Source: an uncultured Pseudomonadales bacterium
Lineage (GTDB): Bacteria > Pseudomonadota > Gammaproteobacteria > Pseudomonadales > Azotimanducaceae
Direction of reading: 5' to 3'
Assembly: GCA_964598305.1 (NCBI GenBank)
Contig: CAZRBP010000001.1
Coordinates: 22,501 to 86,500 of the forward strand
Length of the DNA: 64,000 bases
Shown here: piece by piece, positions 38,638 to 50,925 of the stretch
How the letters are laid out: each line of letters opens with the position of its first letter
Position numbering within the stretch: the first letter of the stretch is position 1
Notes under the pieces: model-generated
The model's input: the letters and a program-made list of their open reading frames with translations, nothing else
The model's database searches: none
What the model was told of the DNA's origin: nothing
Program-made: the position numbers and the translations under genes

Positions 38638-39531
38638 TTACGGCGTGTTGGTGACCCCGCTCGGCACGTGGCCGGCGGGGATGTGCGGGGCGGCGGCTTC
38701 GCAGTGCTGGGTTTGGTCATCGAAGAACACGTCGGCGGCGAACGCCCGGAGGAACTCGGATTTGGTCATGCCGCCGAGGAACAGGGATTCATCCAAGCGG
38801 ATGTTCCAGGCGCGCAGTGTGCGAATGACCCGTTCATGGGCTGGCGCCTCGCGGGCGGTGACCAGCGCGGTGCGGATGGGGCAATCCTCGTCGAACTCCT
38901 GCTGCAGGTCATGCAGCGCCTTCAGAAACGACTTGAACGGCCCGCCCGGCAGCGGCTTGCCGGCCTCTGCGGCCTCCGCCGCGCTGAAGGCTTCGAGCCC
39001 TTGCGCTTGGTAGATTTGCTCGGCCTCATCGGAAAAGAGCACCGCGTCGCCGTCGAAGGCCAGGCGCAGTTGGTCCGTGCCCGACCGCTCGCGCCCGCTG
39101 CTGCCTAGCAGCAAGTTGGCCGCCGCCACGCCCTGCTCCAAGGCTTGGCGAACGTCCGCGCCGTGGGTGCTGAGAAACAGGTCGCAACCAAATGCCCGCA
39201 CGTAGCGGTATGGCGTGTCGCCGCTACAGAACGCTGCCTTGGTGACATCGAGCCCATGGTGCTTGATGGAATTGAAGATGCGCAGCCCCGTATCCGCCGA
39301 GTTGCGCGACAGCAATATGATCTCAACTCTCTTTTTTTTCTTTAATTTATTGATATTGAGCAATTTTTTTACGAAGTAAAACCCCTCCCCTGGGTCTAGC
39401 GGCTTGTCTTCGTTGTCGATTTGGAAACGCCGGTAGGCCTCCAGCCCCTCCGCTTCATAAACGGCATTGCTGTCGCGGAGATCGAACAGTGCCCGGGAGG
39501 AGATGGCGACGGTCAGCAGGTCGGGCGTCAT
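38638..39531 (-). CDS. 5'-nucleotidase (cytosolic 5'-nucleotidase-like family, PF06189-type)
   Basis: The N-terminus is LTVAISSRALFDL. Length is ~297 aa. The start overlaps the upstream stop (ATGA). Confidence 0.6.
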   Translation of the reverse strand: MTPDLLTVAISSRALFDLRDSNAVYEAEGLEAYRRFQIDNEDKPLDPGEGFYFVKKLLNINKLKKKKRVEIILLSRNSADTGLRIFNSIKHHGLDVTKAAFCSGDTPYRYVRAFGCDLFLSTHGADVRQALEQGVAAANLLLGSSGRERSGTDQLRLAFDGDAVLFSDEAEQIYQAQGLEAFSAAEAAEAGKPLPGGPFKSFLKALHDLQQEFDEDCPIRTALVTAREAPAHERVIRTLRAWNIRLDESLFLGGMTKSEFLRAFAADVFFDDQTQHCEAAAPHIPAGHVPSGVTNTP

Positions 39532-46485: not shown

Positions 46486-46520
46486 CGGCTTAGGGCCGTT
46501 CAGAATCTTGGCTATTCGGG

Positions 46521-46700
46521 TCAGACATCATCATCGATCTGGACAAGGTACTCATGATCCAGTGCAACGTGCGGCCGCACGTAGTCGTGGAAGAACTGGT
46601 AGTCGACGAGCTTGGGGGCGACGTCGGCGACGGTGAGGGGCGTCGTATTGGTTCCAGAACTCGACGTTGGTGGCTGTGGCCCGCGAGTAGGCCCCCACGA
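46521..46700 (-). pseudogene. Possible 3' remnant of a DDE transposase/integrase gene (no start codon)
   Basis: Hand translation between in-frame stops gives ..LTVADVAPKLVDYQFFHDYVRPHVALDHEYLVQIDDDV*. The YVRPHVALD segment resembles the ..YN..RPH.aL.. end of rve-type catalytic cores. This evidence is weak. Confidence 0.25.
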
Positions 46701-46775
46701 TCATGTGCCTAGTGGTCGGGCAGACAACCGGACTCGAAGAGTCCGCCGAAGGAACCCCCTTGCAGCTTCATGCGG

Positions 46776-47117
46776 TCACCATGCGGTGGCGCAGTGGTCG
46801 ATGGTGTACGGAATGCCCTCAAGGGCAATGCTGCTCAACACCTTGATTGATTGGACGGTCCCAGGGCCGCATTGATGCAGCGGCGATTCCTGGTCGGCGA
46901 CCATCTCCGCATAGCGTTGGGCGACTTTCAGCGCCTCGCTCATAGCTGTAGCGCCTCGATGGCATCGGAGGTGCATCGTGCGCCAGGAGTCCGGCGTGTG
47001 ACGCAACGCGATGCGCCTTATCTCGGCCTCGGCGCCCTCGCAGTCCATTTCGCCATGGGCGTCCGTCGTAGCCGCCAGCAGCACAATTGCCGTCAGCGCC
47101 GAATAGGCAGCGATCAC
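46776..47117 (-). CDS. 113-aa hypothetical secreted protein (signal-peptide-like N-terminus, 5 Cys)
   Basis: The ORF track gives 46776..47234. I set the start to GTG 47117, which overlaps the upstream stop (GTGA). The N-terminus is (M)IAAYSALTAIVLLAATTDAHGE. Confidence 0.4.
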   Translation of the reverse strand: MIAAYSALTAIVLLAATTDAHGEMDCEGAEAEIRRIALRHTPDSWRTMHLRCHRGATAMSEALKVAQRYAEMVADQESPLHQCGPGTVQSIKVLSSIALEGIPYTIDHCATAW

Positions 47118-47437
47118 GCAATGGGTGTTCCGGTCAGTGCGGCAAGAGCGCGACAAAAGCTCGGTACCTCCGCTTCGCTGCTTAGCTTCCACCACTTGTG
47201 CCCGGCGGGCTGTTCCTTTGGCTCGAATCCGCACTGAACCAGAAGTTCTCTATGTCTAGGATACTCGGAAGCAAAGCGATTAAGAATGAACCAATGGCGA
47301 TTCTTCGAATTCCATCCTCCGGCGGCCCTGCCGTCGTGTTGGAGTTGAAATCCGGTCTTCTGGCACTTCACGGTGTAGGAACTGCTGGCTTCGGCAGCCT
47401 TGAATGCATCTTCCGCAGTGCTCAGTTCGTCACTCAT
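47114..47437 (-). CDS. 107-aa hypothetical protein
   Basis: The ORF track gives 47114..47500. ATG 47437 gives MSDELSTAEDAFKAAEASSSYTVKCQK..GWNSKNRHWFILNRF... I recognise no motif. Confidence 0.4.
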   Translation of the reverse strand: MSDELSTAEDAFKAAEASSSYTVKCQKTGFQLQHDGRAAGGWNSKNRHWFILNRFASEYPRHRELLVQCGFEPKEQPAGHKWWKLSSEAEVPSFCRALAALTGTPIA

Positions 47438-47606
47438 GCTTTCAGTCGAATTCGGAATTGCACGGGAGGGGCTTTGTCGCCATTCCAGCCAAGGGTACAC
47501 AATTCACGACATTCAAGCTCCGTTTAGCAATAACTCTAGCCGTTTATCGCAAATAGGCTCCCCATTTAAACTTGCTTTTTTAAAGAAACACTTTAAATTT
47601 ACGAGG

Positions 47607-48782
47607 ATGATTCCTCGCCAAGCCAAGCTGAAAGTGGAAACCGCACTGCGCCGCCAAGCTGCCGTGGCGCTGATCGGCGCTCGTCAAGTCGGCAAGACGA
47701 CCTTGGCGCTCGACATCGCTCAACACACCCAAGGACTGTACCTCGATTTGGAGTCTCGGGCCGATCGGCAGCGGATGGCGGAGCCCGCCCTGTTTCTCGC
47801 GGAACATGCCCACCGGCTGGTGATCCTGGATGAGATCCACCGTGCCCCCGGCTTGTTTCCAGAACTTCGCAGCATCATTGACCTAGGACGCCGAGCGGGG
47901 CGGCGCACAGGGCGCTTCCTCATTCTGGGTTCCGCCTCGATGGACTTGTTGCGGCAGTCCGGCGAAAGTCTCGCCGGGCGTATCGAGATGGTGCCCCTGA
48001 ACCCGTTTGACGTGCTCGACATCGAACACAATGTCGCGTCCGTCAACACGCATTGGGTACGCGGCGGCTTTCCCGACAGCCTGCTGGCAGCCAATGCGGA
48101 GGATTCATCCGCATTCCGGCGCAACCTCATTCGCACCTACCTCGACCGAGACATTAGCGAATTCACGGGGCGGCGGGTGCCGGCCGAAACGCTGGAACGG
48201 CTTTGGACCATGTTGGCGCACGGTCAGGGGACGCTTTTGAATGCCACCAAGCTGGCTGCCAGCCTCGGCGTGACCAGCCCCACCGTAACCACGTACATCG
48301 ACTTGCTGGTTGACCTGCTGCTGGTGCGCCGCCTTCGCCCCCACCATGTGAACGTCAAAAAGCGGCTGGTCAAGTCTCCCAAGGTCTATGTTCGGGACAG
48401 CGGCATCGCCCACACCCTGCTCGGCATCGAGGACTACACCACGCTCGCCGGACATCCGGTCGCCGGTGCAAGTTGGGAGGGGTTTGTGATCGAGAACCTG
48501 CTCGCCGCCGCTCCCCTCGGCACGGCAGCCAGCTTCTACCGAACCCAAGCCGGAGCTGAGATCGATCTACTGCTTGAACTGCCGGGCCAAACAGCACCTT
48601 GGGCGGTGGAAATTAAGCTGGGCGTGGCTCCTAAGCTCAGCCGCGGCTTCCACCACGCCAGACAGGACATTCATTCCGCCAAATCTTTCGTGGTCTATTC
48701 CGGCACCGAGCGCTACCCGCTGGCTGCCGACGTTGAAGCCATCGGCCTGAAGGCTCTATCGGAACTTTTGGCCAGTCAGTAG
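47607..48782 (+). CDS. AAA-type ATPase with C-terminal DUF4143 domain
   Basis: The start was moved to ATG 47607 (SD GAGG). Walker A is GARQVGKTTL and Walker B is LVILDEIH. The DUF4143-like block is LNATKLAASLGVTSPTVTTYIDLLVDLLLVRRL. Confidence 0.75.
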   Translation: MIPRQAKLKVETALRRQAAVALIGARQVGKTTLALDIAQHTQGLYLDLESRADRQRMAEPALFLAEHAHRLVILDEIHRAPGLFPELRSIIDLGRRAGRRTGRFLILGSASMDLLRQSGESLAGRIEMVPLNPFDVLDIEHNVASVNTHWVRGGFPDSLLAANAEDSSAFRRNLIRTYLDRDISEFTGRRVPAETLERLWTMLAHGQGTLLNATKLAASLGVTSPTVTTYIDLLVDLLLVRRLRPHHVNVKKRLVKSPKVYVRDSGIAHTLLGIEDYTTLAGHPVAGASWEGFVIENLLAAAPLGTAASFYRTQAGAEIDLLLELPGQTAPWAVEIKLGVAPKLSRGFHHARQDIHSAKSFVVYSGTERYPLAADVEAIGLKALSELLASQ

Positions 48783-48821
48783 TTGTTGCCATCCTCGCAA
48801 AACCCTGTACCATGCGCCGCC

Positions 48822-48971
48822 ATGCTGAATGACACGCAATATTTTTGGGTTCGCTACTTTGGTCGCTTCGCGGTGACCTAGCCCCCTTTTGTCAATCGCA
48901 TGAATGGAAGGTGGCCAAACCGGGCGCCTTCCCCAAGAAGGCCCCGCCAGAAGATGAGCGGGGTTTTTTTT
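48822..48971 (+). promoter_or_regulatory. Candidate leader/attenuator: 19-codon aromatic-rich mini-ORF (48822-48881, MLNDTQYFWVRYFGRFAVT) followed by hairpins and an intrinsic terminator, upstream of DAHP synthase
   Basis: The ORF was read directly; 6 of 19 residues are Tyr/Phe/Trp. A hairpin GGAAGGTG..CGCCTTCC lies at 48907-48931. The terminator follows at 48942-48971. There is no obvious SD for the mini-ORF. Confidence 0.35.
48942..48971 (+). terminator. Rho-independent terminator CCCCGC-N10-GCGGGG-TTTTTTTT
   Basis: A 6-bp all-G/C stem (48942-48947 / 48958-48963) is followed directly by T8 (48964-48971). Confidence 0.7.
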
Positions 48972-49023
48972 GCCTGCGGTTCACGCGGCGGGCAATGGCC
49001 TAGGAGGAAAGGAGGCTTGAACC

Positions 49024-50091
49024 ATGTCCGAGTTGGAGAACATCAACGTGGAGCGGCTGCAAGTGTTGACAACGCCTGAACAACTCAAACGGCAATTGCC
49101 CGCATCAAAGGCGGCGCGGGCCAGCGTGCAACGCGCGCGGCGGGCGGTCAACGCGGTGCTCAACCGGCAGGATCCCCGGCTGCTGGTGGTGGTCGGCCCC
49201 TGCTCGATCCACGACACCAGCGCCGCCAAGGACTACGGCGAACGCTTGGCGGCGCTCGGCCAGGAGGTCGAGGACGCCCTGCTGCTGGTGATGCGCACCT
49301 ACTTCGAGAAGCCGCGCACCACCGTCGGCTGGAAAGGGCTGATCAACGACCCCTACCTGGACGATTCGTTTCGGGTGTCCGACGGCCTGCAAATCGCCCG
49401 CCGCCTGCTGCTCGACCTGGCCGAACTCGGCCTGCCGCTCAGCACCGAAGCCTTGGACCCGATCACCCCGCAGTACCTGCAGGACCTGATTAGCTGGTCG
49501 GCCATCGGCGCCCGCACCTCAGAATCCCAAACCCATCGGGAAATGGCATCGGGACTGAGTTCGGCGGTGGGCTTCAAGAACGGCACCGACGGCTCCTTGG
49601 ACGCCGCCATCAACGCCATGCGCTCGGTGGCCAAGCCGCACCGCTTCCTCGGCATCAATCCAGCCGGTCAAGTGGCGGTCATTGAGACGCGGGGCAACCC
49701 CAACGCCCATATGGTGCTGCGCGGCGGCGCCAACGGCACCAACTACGACCGCGCCAGCATCCGCGCCTGCGAAGCGGCGATGCGCGACGCCGGGTTGACG
49801 CCGATCATCATGGTGGATTGCAGCCACGCCAACTCCAACAAGGACCCGTCCACCCAGCCGACGGTCGCCCGGGAGGTGCTCGGTCAGATTGGGGAAGGCA
49901 ACGATTCCATCGTCGGCATCATGCTGGAGAGCCACATCCACGGCGGCAGCCAGCGCATTCCAGACAACTTGGATGAATTGCGCTACGGCGTCTCAGTCAC
50001 CGATGGCTGCATCGACTGGGCCACCACTGAGGCACTGCTGCGCGAAGCCGCCGATGCGCTCAGGCCGACGCTCGCCCGCCGAGTCGCCTAA
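49024..50091 (+). CDS. Class I 3-deoxy-7-phosphoheptulonate (DAHP) synthase
   Basis: The motifs VVGPCSIHD, RTYFEKPRTTVGWKGLINDP, SWSAIGARTSESQ.HRE.ASGLS and VGFKNGTDG are present. A strong AGGAGG/AAGGAGG SD lies upstream. Confidence 0.9.
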   Translation: MSELENINVERLQVLTTPEQLKRQLPASKAARASVQRARRAVNAVLNRQDPRLLVVVGPCSIHDTSAAKDYGERLAALGQEVEDALLLVMRTYFEKPRTTVGWKGLINDPYLDDSFRVSDGLQIARRLLLDLAELGLPLSTEALDPITPQYLQDLISWSAIGARTSESQTHREMASGLSSAVGFKNGTDGSLDAAINAMRSVAKPHRFLGINPAGQVAVIETRGNPNAHMVLRGGANGTNYDRASIRACEAAMRDAGLTPIIMVDCSHANSNKDPSTQPTVAREVLGQIGEGNDSIVGIMLESHIHGGSQRIPDNLDELRYGVSVTDGCIDWATTEALLREAADALRPTLARRVA

Positions 50092-50111: not shown

Positions 50112-50693
50112 CTATCGATAGTAGGCGTTTTCCGTAACGCTGTGGTCGGTGACGTCGCGAATTGCGGAAAGGTCGGGAATCTGCGCCAGCAGTGTGCTCT
50201 CGACGCTCTGCTTGAGAGTGATGTCCACCGCCGCGCAACCTTGGCAGCCACCGCCGAACTGCAGCACGGCGGTGTTGTCCTCCAGCAACTCCACGAGGGT
50301 GACCATGCCGCCGTGGGCCGCTAGCCCCGGGTTGATCTCGTTGTAGAGCACGTAGTTGATGCGATCCTCCAGCGGCGAATCCTCATCGACGCTGGGCACC
50401 CGGGCGTTGGGCGCCTTGATGGTGAGCTGGCCGCCCATGCGGTCCTCCTGAAAGTCCACCACCGCATCGACCAGGTAGCTTTCGCTGCGTGCCTCGATCC
50501 AAGCCCGAAAGCCATCATACTCGTAAGGCATGTCGTCGTCCTGGGCCTCGCCGGGACGGCAGTAGGCGATGCAGGTCTCCGCATGGGGGGTGCCGGGCTG
50601 GGCAACGAACACGCGGATGCCCACGTCGTCGTCCTCCTGCTTGGCCAGCAACTCCCGCAGATACGCCTGCGCCTTCTCTGAGATATTGATCAT
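50112..50693 (-). CDS. nfuA: Fe-S cluster biogenesis protein NfuA
   Basis: The start was moved to ATG 50693 ([16 protein letters not shown]). An A-type-like N-domain is followed by an Nfu C-domain with GGGCQGC. Confidence 0.9.
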
Positions 50694-50804
50694 GTCAATT
50701 CCCGACCATTTCAGTCGGGTATAGTACCGGCTAAGGCTTCCGGGGCCAAGGACTGGGTTCAGCGACTGTCGTTCAGCGGCTGGGTTCAGCGGCGTTGCCA
50801 AACA

Positions 50805-50817
50805 TGAATCCCTTTCA
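50805..50817. promoter_or_regulatory. Putative MetR box TGAATCCCTTTCA (TGAA-N5-TTCA)
   Basis: It is an exact match to the MetR consensus geometry, ~110 nt upstream of the metH start. Confidence 0.4.
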
Positions 50818-50925
50818 GGTTGGGGATTTGAAATCCGGCTCGCCCCCAAACGGTGCCTGTCTATACTCCCTTAGCAATCTGGCTTGATGCTGCAAGGCGG
50901 GCCTAATGACCCGCCCCCTCCACTC

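What the first reader, a model, noticed from the sequence alone, without database searches (positions are those of the whole stretch)
48783..49026. Aromatic-rich 19-codon mini-ORF plus intrinsic terminator upstream of DAHP synthase: candidate Tyr/Phe/Trp-sensing attenuator
Seen:
- ATG 48822 opens MLNDTQYFWVRYFGRFAVT-stop (48879-48881). Six of 19 residues are aromatic, including the run Tyr-Phe-Trp and a second Tyr-Phe.
- Downstream lie a hairpin (GGAAGGTG-loop-CGCCTTCC, 48907-48931) and a clean terminator (CCCCGC-N10-GCGGGG-T8, 48942-48971).
- 52 nt after the T-run, the DAHP synthase gene starts behind a strong SD.

Established: ribosome-mediated attenuation uses leader peptides enriched in the regulatory amino acids (trpL, pheL). 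DAHP synthase is the first committed enzyme for all three aromatic amino acids. In enterobacteria it is controlled by TyrR/TrpR repression, not attenuation.

Inference: a single leader may sense all three aromatic aminoacyl-tRNAs.

Caveats:
- I see no SD for the mini-ORF.
- I could not identify a convincing antiterminator pairing by eye.
- The terminator could simply serve the ATPase gene ending 160 nt upstream.
Basis: partly seen in the sequence, partly recalled or inferred. Interest (0 to 1): 0.6.

Follow-up and report, generated by a model that had tools for sequence, protein, structure and literature searches.

The report
Aromatic leader-peptide attenuator before DAHP synthase
A 19-codon mini-gene rich in Tyr, Phe and Trp codons, followed by a switchable transcription stop signal, sits in front of the first enzyme of aromatic amino-acid synthesis; it is conserved across a whole, mostly uncultured gammaproteobacterial family, and is a new example of the classic "leader peptide" way of sensing amino-acid supply.

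Summary
The hairpin coordinates are off by one base; everything else is as stated. The attenuator reading is well supported.

- **Conservation:** promoter, mini-ORF, hairpin and terminator recur upstream of the orthologous DAHP synthase in 22 of 24 genus-mates. A covariance model found the element in 65 of 201 genomes (26 of 44 genera) of the same family. It found none before this gene in other families of the order.
- **Leader peptides:** all 67 analysed end in an aromatic cluster, and 63 carry Phe, Tyr and Trp together.
- **No Shine-Dalgarno:** a sigma-70-type promoter ends 6-10 nt before the ATG in 54 of 67, so the leader is leaderless or nearly so.
- **Missing antiterminator, now found:** 48921-48931 pairs with 48937-46 and sequesters the terminator's 5' arm.
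- **Relay:** the stop codon plus about 10 nt (S1, 48881-92) pairs with the 5' arm of the hairpin. A ribosome at the stop codon masks S1, so the hairpin and the terminator form. A ribosome stalled at aromatic codons leaves S1 free, so the antiterminator forms.
- **Covariation:** both alternative pairings covary across genera.

No expression data could be obtained. Analogous devices are known in Corynebacterium (aroR-aroF) and predicted in Acholeplasma. I file this as a new, uncatalogued member of a known kind, of moderate interest.

The parts
48786..48813 (+). Sigma-70-type promoter: -35 TTGCCA (48786-91), 16-nt spacer, -10 TACCAT (48808-13). It is followed by a G+C-rich 8-nt discriminator, GCGCCGCC.
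   Evidence: Found by the scan: 1 site, against 0.1 expected. It is conserved in position and TAnnnT pattern across the genus. TTGnnn-N16-18-nAnnnT ends 6-10 nt before the in-frame ATG in 54 of 67 family leaders, against 3.5% of shuffles.
48822..48881 (+). Leader ORF of 19 codons plus TAG: MLNDTQYFWVRYFGRFAVT. It has no SD and is leaderless or nearly so. The candidate sensing codons are TAT TTT TGG (48840-48), TAC TTT (48855-60) and TTC (48867-69).
   Evidence: An ORF ending in an aromatic cluster is present in all 67 leaders. The in-frame mean is 5.5 aromatic codons in the last 14, against 1.3 and 1.9 in the other frames. TAT/TAC and TTT/TTC are both used.
48847..48856 (+). S0 (tentative): GGG..GCUA within the Trp-Val-Arg-Tyr codons. 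In the untranslated leader it can pair with UAGC..CCC of S1.
   Evidence: Seen in the minimum-energy fold of the full leader. The cognate-over-non-cognate advantage is weak (-10.8 vs -9.9 kcal/mol, p 2.5e-4; 10 thinned representatives p 0.013).
48881..48892 (+). S1: the last base of the stop codon plus the next 11 nt (GCCCCCUUUUGU). It mimics the 3' arm of the hairpin and pairs with S2. A ribosome sitting on the stop codon covers it.
   Evidence: The best S1:S2 duplex starts at +1 of the stop codon in about 55 of 67 leaders. Cognate vs non-cognate is -12.2 vs -9.8 kcal/mol (p 5e-5; thinned set p 0.008). Control windows show no effect.
48904..48915 (+). S2: the 5' arm of hairpin A (GGAAGGUG 48906-13) with flanking bases. 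It pairs with either S1 or S3.
48921..48932 (+). S3: the 3' arm of hairpin A (CGCCUUCC 48925-32) plus CGGG (48921-24). It pairs with either S2 (hairpin A) or S4 (antiterminator).
   Evidence: All 8 pairs of hairpin A show compensatory changes and 95.6% of cells are paired. The alternative pairing is shown.
48937..48946 (+). S4: GAAGGCCCCG, the antiterminator partner of S3. It includes CCCCG of the terminator's 5' arm.
   Evidence: helices 48926-31:48937-42 and 48921-24:48943-46, duplex -18.2 kcal/mol. Across the family, S3 pairs with the terminator 5' arm and loop at -13.4 vs -10.2 kcal/mol for cognate vs non-cognate (p 5e-5; thinned set p 1e-4).
48935..48971 (+). Intrinsic terminator: extended stem AAGAAGGCCCCGC / GCGGGGUUUUUUU. 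The core is CCCCGC 48942-47 and GCGGGG 48958-63, with T8 at 48964-71.
   Evidence: It is conserved in every leader, with 98.9% of cells paired.
49024..50091 (+). Regulated gene: class I-alpha DAHP synthase (355 aa), with SD AGGAGG at 49010-15. It appears monocistronic, because the next ORF (50112-50849) lies on the opposite strand.

Best explanation
This is a ribosome-mediated (leader-peptide) transcription attenuator that sets how many transcripts from the aro promoter reach the DAHP synthase gene.

Transcription starts at or within about 3 nt of the leader ATG. A ribosome translates the 19-codon leader close behind RNA polymerase.

**Aromatic supply sufficient (terminate).** The ribosome runs to the TAG and covers S1 (48881-92). 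S2 then pairs with S3 to form hairpin A (48906-13:48925-32). S4 stays free, the terminator (48935-71) forms, and transcription stops 52 nt before the gene.

**Aromatic supply short (read through).** If Tyr-, Phe- or Trp-tRNA is scarce, the ribosome stalls on TAT-TTT-TGG, TAC-TTT or TTC. S1 emerges uncovered and captures S2. The freed S3 pairs with S4 (48921-31:48937-46) and sequesters the terminator's 5' arm. Polymerase reads through into the gene.

**Design.** This is a relay of the his-operon type (A:B, B:C, C:D, D:E, E:F) rather than the four-segment trp type.

**Shown here by computation:** the parts, their conservation, the mutually exclusive pairings, their covariation, and their register relative to the stop codon.

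**Inferred:** that the ORF is translated, that stalling happens on starvation, that the kinetics work, and which of the three amino acids matter.
For: 1. **Conservation with the gene.** The cassette is present upstream of the orthologue in 22 of 24 genus-mates. CM R1 hits 65 of 201 family genomes in 26 of 44 genera. Among the hits examined, 50 of 65 loci outside the genus, including nearly all full-length matches, lie directly upstream of the DAHP synthase orthologue. In 400 genomes of the order, no hit outside the family lies before a DAHP synthase. Named Pseudomonas, Halomonas, Halieaceae and Cellvibrionaceae loci lack it.
2. **Coding signature.** Every leader ORF ends in an aromatic cluster. 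Its last 14 residues are 18% F, 13% Y and 8% W. All three are present in 63 of 67. The enrichment is frame-specific and synonymous codons vary.
3. **Promoter abutting the ATG** in 54 of 67 leaders.
4. **Structures.** Hairpin A and the terminator form standard pairs in 97.6% of cells, and 13 of 18 pairs show compensatory change (0 of 500 shuffles reach this).
5. **Switch.** In nascent-RNA partition functions, hairpin A has median probability 0.00 with a ribosome stalled on aromatic codons and 0.80 with a ribosome at the stop. For the window these are 0.00 and 0.79, and the terminator 5' arm is paired 0.98 vs 0.47.
6. **Alternative helices covary.** Cognate beats non-cognate for S1:S2 and for S3:terminator-arm/loop, also in a set thinned to below 70% identity. 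Control windows do not show this.
7. **Register.** S1 begins at +1 of the stop codon in about 55 of 67 leaders.
8. **Precedent.** C. glutamicum aroR-aroF is an experimentally shown attenuator.
Against: - There are no expression data.
- At equilibrium the terminator always wins (P about 1). The switch must therefore be kinetic, which folding cannot test.
- With no ribosome at all, the model predicts the antiterminated fold in most members (hairpin A median 0.02), unless the weakly supported S0:S1 helix operates.
- In most other genera the antiterminator partner lies largely in the terminator loop. Exclusion of the terminator there is less clear-cut than in the window's clade.
- The ORF frame was chosen partly by aromatic content, which inflates the frame contrast.
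- The cognate/non-cognate tests are not fully phylogeny-corrected.
Confidence: 0.82

Rival explanations
1. Chance ORF plus an ordinary terminator. The terminator ends the upstream DUF4143 ATPase transcript, DAHP synthase has its own promoter downstream, and the aromatic ORF is coincidence.
For: The ATPase gene ends 160 nt upstream on the same strand. The 52 nt between the T-run and the ATG could in principle hold a promoter.
Against: A conserved promoter and the ORF lie between the ATPase stop and the terminator. The cassette stays with DAHP synthase where the upstream gene differs or the ATPase islet is absent. It is conserved across 26 genera. No promoter-like site was found in 48972-49023.
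Confidence: 0.02
2. A conserved cis-regulatory RNA that works without translation. It would sense a metabolite, a protein or an uncharged tRNA directly, and the open frame would be a by-product of sequence constraints.
For: Hairpin A and the alternative helices are strongly conserved and covary. No SD is present. Translation was not observed.
Against: The part upstream of the stop codon is conserved as peptide, not as sequence: aromatic residues are kept with synonymous codon variation and the enrichment is frame-specific. An in-frame ATG sits 6-10 nt after the -10 box in 54 of 67. The stop codon is locked in register with S1. There is no match to any riboswitch or T-box family in Rfam.
Confidence: 0.06
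3. The peptide itself matters. It could act as a nascent-chain arrest peptide that senses free aromatic amino acids in the ribosome tunnel, as TnaC does. Or it could act as a small trans-acting peptide, as peTrpL does. Either could replace or add to tRNA-charging sensing.
For: Non-aromatic positions are also conserved at the amino-acid level with wobble variation: Y-F-G-R in the genus and W-x-G-Y in the family. TAG is the stop codon in 52 of 67. peTrpL shows that leader peptides can act in trans (PMC7298713, abstract listed).
Against: Peptide length and N-terminal sequence vary freely (19-52 residues). The Gly/Arg codons and the TAG overlap predicted RNA helices, which can explain their conservation. 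The classical mechanism already accounts for every conserved part.
Confidence: 0.08

Closest known systems
aroR-aroF leader-peptide attenuator of Corynebacterium glutamicum (Neshat et al. 2014, as summarised in PMC11802643)
   Same: An aromatic-rich leader peptide (Phe-Tyr-Phe) with attenuation upstream of a DAHP synthase gene. Ribosome stalling raises transcription of the gene.
   Different: It is from another phylum and no sequence relationship was tested. The peptide here carries Trp as well as Tyr and Phe. In C. glutamicum only Phe limitation, not Tyr, had an effect.
Salmonella/E. coli his operon attenuator (hisL). The segment scheme A:B, C:D, E:F versus B:C, D:E is from my own knowledge.
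   Same: A multi-segment relay in which the segment at the end of the leader ORF decides between two alternating sets of helices. A ribosome at the stop codon gives termination, and a ribosome stalled upstream gives readthrough.
   Different: Different amino acids and a different regulated gene. The first helix (S0:S1) is only weakly supported here. The leader here has no SD.
E. coli trpL and pheL attenuators (Rfam Trp_leader RF00513, Phe_leader)
   Same: The same principle, with an aromatic amino acid sensed through tRNA charging.
   Different: Those control terminal-branch operons and each senses one amino acid through tandem identical codons. This element is not a member of either Rfam family: only a 15.7-bit Trp_leader match (gathering score 41, E 6.6), driven by the terminator.
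uORFC-13-1 motif upstream of aroF in Acholeplasma (PMC8632094)
   Same: A predicted uORF with Phe codons next to a terminator, upstream of DAHP synthase.
   Different: It is from Mollicutes and has a different consensus. It is predicted only.

Membership tests
Ribosome-mediated (leader-peptide) transcription attenuators | A short upstream ORF enriched in codons for the end-product amino acid(s) of the regulated gene | tested here: met
   Six of 19 codons are aromatic. Family-wide, 39% of the last 14 residues are aromatic. The regulated gene is a DAHP synthase.
Ribosome-mediated (leader-peptide) transcription attenuators | An intrinsic terminator between the leader ORF and the gene | tested here: met
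   A 13-bp extended stem plus T8 at 48935-71. It is conserved in all 67 leaders. Function as a terminator was not assayed.
Ribosome-mediated (leader-peptide) transcription attenuators | An antiterminator helix mutually exclusive with the terminator | tested here: met
   48921-31:48937-46 covers CCCCG of the terminator arm. The equivalent pairing covaries across genera.
Ribosome-mediated (leader-peptide) transcription attenuators | A register in which a ribosome stalled on the regulatory codons favours the antiterminator and a ribosome at the stop codon favours the terminator | tested here: met
   Hairpin A probability is 0.00 (stalled) vs 0.79 (at stop) in the window, with family medians 0.00 vs 0.80. 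S1 starts at +1 of the stop codon in about 55 of 67. These are thermodynamic models only.
Ribosome-mediated (leader-peptide) transcription attenuators | The leader ORF is translated | not testable with these tools
   Support is indirect only: the coding signature and an ATG abutting the promoter.
Ribosome-mediated (leader-peptide) transcription attenuators | Readthrough rises when the cognate amino acid or charged tRNA is limiting | not testable with these tools
   This needs reporter or transcript assays.
Rfam Trp_leader (RF00513) and the other catalogued leader families | A score at or above the family's gathering threshold | tested here: not met
   Trp_leader scores 15.7 bits against a gathering score of 41 (E 6.6). 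No other leader family appears at E up to 10.
C. glutamicum aroR leader | Sequence or structure homology to aroR | not tested
   The aroR sequence was not at hand. Only the published description was used.

The most novel reading that the evidence does not exclude
One leaderless 19-32-codon peptide integrates the charging of three different tRNA species (Phe, Tyr, Trp) to gate the committed step of the common aromatic pathway. On this reading it serves as the main transcriptional control of DAHP synthase throughout a large, mostly uncultured Pseudomonadales family, in place of the TyrR/TrpR repressors of model gammaproteobacteria. In most genera its antiterminator would work by pairing into the terminator's loop rather than its stem.
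Probability: 0.35. Interest if true: 0.5.

Novelty: new member of a known kind. Interest (0 to 1): 0.38.

Why it matters
**What it changes.** Textbook gammaproteobacterial control of DAHP synthase is by repressors (TyrR, TrpR) plus feedback inhibition. Here a whole family appears to use a translation-coupled RNA switch at the pathway's entry point. Its single leader carries codons for all three end products.

**What it offers.**
- A ready-made, uncatalogued RNA family: 67 distinct sequences, a covariance model, and defined alternative helices.
- A likely case of leaderless translation in a gammaproteobacterium.
- A compact part (about 190 nt) that could serve as an aromatic-supply sensor in engineering.

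**Limits.** The mechanism class is long known. DAHP synthase attenuators are already described in Corynebacterium and predicted in Acholeplasma. Unchecked notes from this scan report similar devices in other phyla. This is an extension of known biology, not a surprise.

Tried and rejected
- **Rfam scan at E up to 10.** It gave only a sub-threshold Trp_leader match carried by the terminator, so the element belongs to no catalogued family.
- **Consensus terminator scan.** It found nothing because the loop (10 nt) exceeds its limit. The terminator was verified by folding instead.
- **The search for related loci on genome contigs with the DAHP synthase.** This served as a negative set. It gave only generic names for family members ('Pseudomonadales bacterium', 'Gammaproteobacteria bacterium'), so the family and genus remain unnamed.
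- **The look-up of encoding contigs.** It gave an ENA MAG record without an organism name.
- **Automatic hairpin picking by minimum-energy fold.** It often returned the alternative S1:S2 or S3:S4 helices instead of hairpin A. I replaced it with an explicit stem search.
- **TyrR-box search, TGTAAA-N6-TTTACA.** There is no site near the leader, and the window-wide count is at chance level.
- **Order-wide CM hits outside the family.** These are generic terminators or unrelated leaders, and none lies before a DAHP synthase.
- **Second aromatic-dense short ORF in the window (39266-39380).** It lies antisense inside a 297-aa gene, so I rejected it as chance.
- **Literature searches.** They found no description of a proteobacterial DAHP synthase leader-peptide attenuator. 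The only related item is the old, unconfirmed hypothesis for E. coli aroF (Camakaris 1980, cited in PMC2659441 and PMC8632094).
Full report
**1. The observation**

Reading 48400-49300 confirms the mini-ORF: ATG 48822, MLNDTQYFWVRYFGRFAVT, TAG 48879-81. Six of 19 residues are aromatic, in the runs Tyr-Phe-Trp, Tyr-Phe and a lone Phe.

The terminator is as stated: CCCCGC 48942-47, N10, GCGGGG 48958-63, T8 48964-71. The DAHP synthase ATG is at 49024, 52 nt after the T-run, with AGGAGG at 49010-15.

The gene product is a class I-alpha DAHP synthase (TIGR00034, 488 bits).

Among 543 short ATG-ORFs in the window, only this one and a nested set lying antisense inside a coding gene are as aromatic-dense. 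Rfam has no family for it: the only match is a 15.7-bit Trp_leader hit (gathering score 41) carried by the terminator.

**2. Conservation**

The genome has two class I-alpha DAHP synthases. Only this one carries the element.

In 22 of the 24 genus-mates whose orthologue was fetched (G024 gave only the paralogue match), the same cassette lies upstream of the orthologue (73-97% identical): promoter, ATG, aromatic-ended ORF, hairpin and terminator.
- The peptides differ but keep F-W-x-x-Y-F-G-R.
- The third codon positions vary (TAC/TAT, TTT/TTC, GGT/GGC, CGC/CGT/CGG).
- The -10 box varies only within TAnnnT (TACCAT, TATGAT, TAGTAT, TACACT).

A covariance model built from the genus found the element in 65 of 201 sampled genomes of the same GTDB family, in 26 of 44 genera. 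Of the 65 hit loci examined outside the genus, 50 lie directly upstream of the DAHP synthase orthologue at 58-68% identity. The other 15 are mostly partial or weak matches to the terminator half of the model.

Each of these hits has a leader ORF ending in an aromatic cluster, for example YWLGYFYFIDK, WWAGYYFFSD, YWFGYAFVD and FFWFGFYYFFEK.

In 400 genomes drawn from the whole order, no hit outside the family is next to a DAHP synthase. Named Pseudomonas, Halomonas, Halieaceae, Cellvibrionaceae and other loci lack both the RNA and any aromatic leader.

Family members that carry public titles are called only 'Pseudomonadales bacterium' or 'Gammaproteobacteria bacterium' MAGs. I could not name the family.

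**3.

*No SD.* A promoter-like site, TTGCCA-16-TACCAT, ends 8 nt before the ATG. In 54 of 67 family leaders a TTGnnn-N16-18-nAnnnT site ends 6-10 nt before an in-frame ATG. Only 3.5% of shuffles hold any such arrangement. The leader mRNA is therefore leaderless or has at most a few untranslated bases. That explains the missing SD and places the aro promoter upstream of the mini-ORF.

*The terminator as the end of the ATPase gene.* The promoter and ORF lie between the ATPase stop (48782) and the terminator. In G001 the upstream neighbour is instead the AddA-like helicase gene, with the leader ORF called as a 49-aa gene there. The cassette follows DAHP synthase, not the upstream gene.

*The antiterminator.* When the RNA from just after a stalled ribosome up to the base before the terminator's 3' arm is folded, two helices appear:
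- S1:S2, formed by 48881-83:48913-15 and 48885-92:48904-11.
- S3:S4, formed by 48926-31:48937-42 and 48921-24:48943-46, with a duplex energy of -18.2 kcal/mol.

S3:S4 buries CCCCG of the terminator's 5' arm. When the ribosome is put on the stop codon, covering bases to about 48891, S1 is unavailable. Hairpin A then forms (48906-13:48925-32) and S4 stays free for the terminator.

**4. Does this hold across the family?**

I analysed 67 non-redundant leaders.
- **Register.** The best S1:S2 duplex starts at +1 of the stop codon in about 55 of 67 and ends at +10 to +16. That is the stretch a terminating ribosome covers.
- **Stop codon.** It is TAG in 52, TGA in 13 and TAA in 2.
- **Predicted switch.** In partition-function folds of the nascent RNA, hairpin A has median probability 0.00 with a ribosome on the first or last aromatic codon and 0.80 with a ribosome on the stop codon. 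For the window the values are 0.00 vs 0.79, and the terminator 5' arm is paired 0.98 vs 0.47.
- **Hairpin A and the terminator.** 97.6% of cells pair and 13 of 18 pairs show a compensatory change. All 8 pairs of hairpin A have changes on both sides, and no shuffle of 500 reaches these values.

For the alternative helices I used an alignment-free test. It compares the duplex energy of each sequence's own partners with partners taken from other sequences.

| Pairing | Cognate (kcal/mol) | Non-cognate (kcal/mol) | p, all 67 | p, 10 representatives below 70% identity |
|---|---|---|---|---|
| S1:S2 | -12.2 | -9.8 | 5e-5 | 0.008 |
| S3 with terminator 5' arm and loop | -13.4 | -10.2 | 5e-5 | 1e-4 |
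| Control: ORF body with S2 | -9.19 | -9.12 | 0.35 | 0.35 |
| Control: S3 with downstream of T-run | -8.11 | -8.26 | 0.74 | 0.88 |
| S0:S1 (tentative) | -10.8 | -9.9 | 2.5e-4 | 0.013 |

In the window's clade the S3 partner (GAAGGC) lies just 5' of, and overlaps, the terminator arm. In most other genera it lies in the terminator loop (GGCAG, GGCGG, GGGCAA and similar) and changes in step with S3 (CTGCC, CCGCC, TTGCCC).

**5. Coding signature**

In the last 14 codons the chosen frame holds 5.5 aromatic codons on average, against 1.3 and 1.9 in the other frames. The composition is F 18%, Y 13% and W 8%. All three residues occur in 63 of 67 leaders. TAT/TAC and TTT/TTC are all used. The frame was picked partly by aromatic content, so the contrast is somewhat inflated. 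However, the same frame is the one whose stop codon is locked to S1 and whose ATG abuts the promoter.

**6. Mechanism**

The best reading is a classical ribosome-mediated attenuator with a his-type relay. A ribosome that reaches the stop codon masks S1, giving hairpin A plus terminator, so the gene is off. A ribosome stalled on Tyr, Phe or Trp codons leaves S1 free, giving S1:S2 plus S3:S4, so transcription reads through.

An upstream S0:S1 helix (48847-56 with 48879-86) appears in the minimum-energy fold of the untranslated leader. It shows only a weak cognate advantage. Without it, the model predicts readthrough for untranslated leaders. This point stays open.

At equilibrium the terminator always wins, so the switch has to be kinetic, as in the known cases.

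**7. What is not shown**

Translation of the ORF, the transcription start, the terminated transcript and the response to starvation are all unobserved. Which amino acids are sensed is also open. In C. glutamicum aroR carries Phe-Tyr-Phe but responds to Phe and not to Tyr (PMC11802643).

**8. Comparison with known systems and novelty**

- The principle is that of trpL, pheL and hisL.
- A DAHP synthase attenuator with an aromatic leader is established in C. glutamicum (aroR-aroF).
- A uORF motif before aroF is predicted in Acholeplasma (PMC8632094).
- Attenuation of E. coli aroF was hypothesised in 1980 (cited).
- I found no description of a proteobacterial DAHP synthase leader-peptide attenuator in the searched library, and Rfam has no model for it.
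- Earlier unchecked notes of this scan report analogous aromatic leaders before DAHP synthase in cyanobacteria, archaea and other groups. If right, the theme is common in nature even if little described.

I therefore file this as a new member of a known kind. It is a well-supported, family-wide, uncatalogued attenuator with a leaderless leader and codons for all three aromatic amino acids. Its interest is moderate.

Noticed in passing
L043 (G091:C15:9309-9443 and flanks): The covariance model also hit a different leader in a family member. It is a Thr-rich mini-ORF (MCDMRVMTTTTTTATSVAGSSRA) behind a promoter-like site, followed by the same hairpin-plus-CCCCG..CGGGG-T-run architecture. It lies directly upstream of a threonyl-tRNA synthetase gene. 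This looks like a candidate Thr-sensing attenuator of thrS built on the same scaffold.
   Followed up: partly
window 48814-48821 and the same position in genus-mates: The 8-10 nt between the -10 box and the leader ATG are G+C-rich and conserved in the genus (GCGCCGCC, or GCGCGGCCTT). A G+C-rich discriminator is the hallmark of promoters negatively controlled by ppGpp/DksA. That would be unexpected for an amino-acid biosynthetic gene.
   Followed up: no
window 48855-48866 (TAC TTT GGT CGC) and family leaders: Non-aromatic residues of the leader are also conserved as amino acids, with wobble variation: Y-F-G-R throughout the genus and W-x-G-Y in most of the family. Overlap with RNA helices (48861-67:48872-78) may explain this. 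A constraint on the peptide itself is not excluded.
   Followed up: partly
stop codon of the leader, window 48879-48881 and 66 relatives: TAG, usually the rarest stop codon, ends 52 of 67 leader ORFs. Its AG is the first paired base pair of S1 in most of them.
   Followed up: partly
window 46486-48782 compared with L182 (G001): In G001 the AddA-like helicase gene is followed after about 90 nt by the aro leader. In the window a 2.3-kb lower-G+C stretch with the DUF4143 ATPase lies between them, immediately upstream of the aro promoter.
   Followed up: partly
L004 / L182 718-867: In one genus-mate the leader ORF is extended at its N-terminus to 49 codons (MLQVKTKILDRG...WYFGRFAVT). It was called as a gene in the public record. 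The promoter-ATG arrangement is kept further upstream.
   Followed up: no
L187 (G605:C91:97572-97645 and flanks): A weak model hit in another family of the order shows a short frame ending ..T-T-H-H-H-I-Q-R-F-T-stop, followed by a hairpin and a CCCCGG..CCGGGG-T-run terminator. It may be a His-type leader. The downstream gene was not identified.
   Followed up: no
window 39266-39380 (+): This is the only other aromatic-dense short ORF in the window (..STLFFFFNLLILSNFFTK). It lies antisense inside a 297-aa minus-strand ORF (38638-39531), so it is a by-product of an A-rich coding stretch and not a leader.
   Followed up: yes
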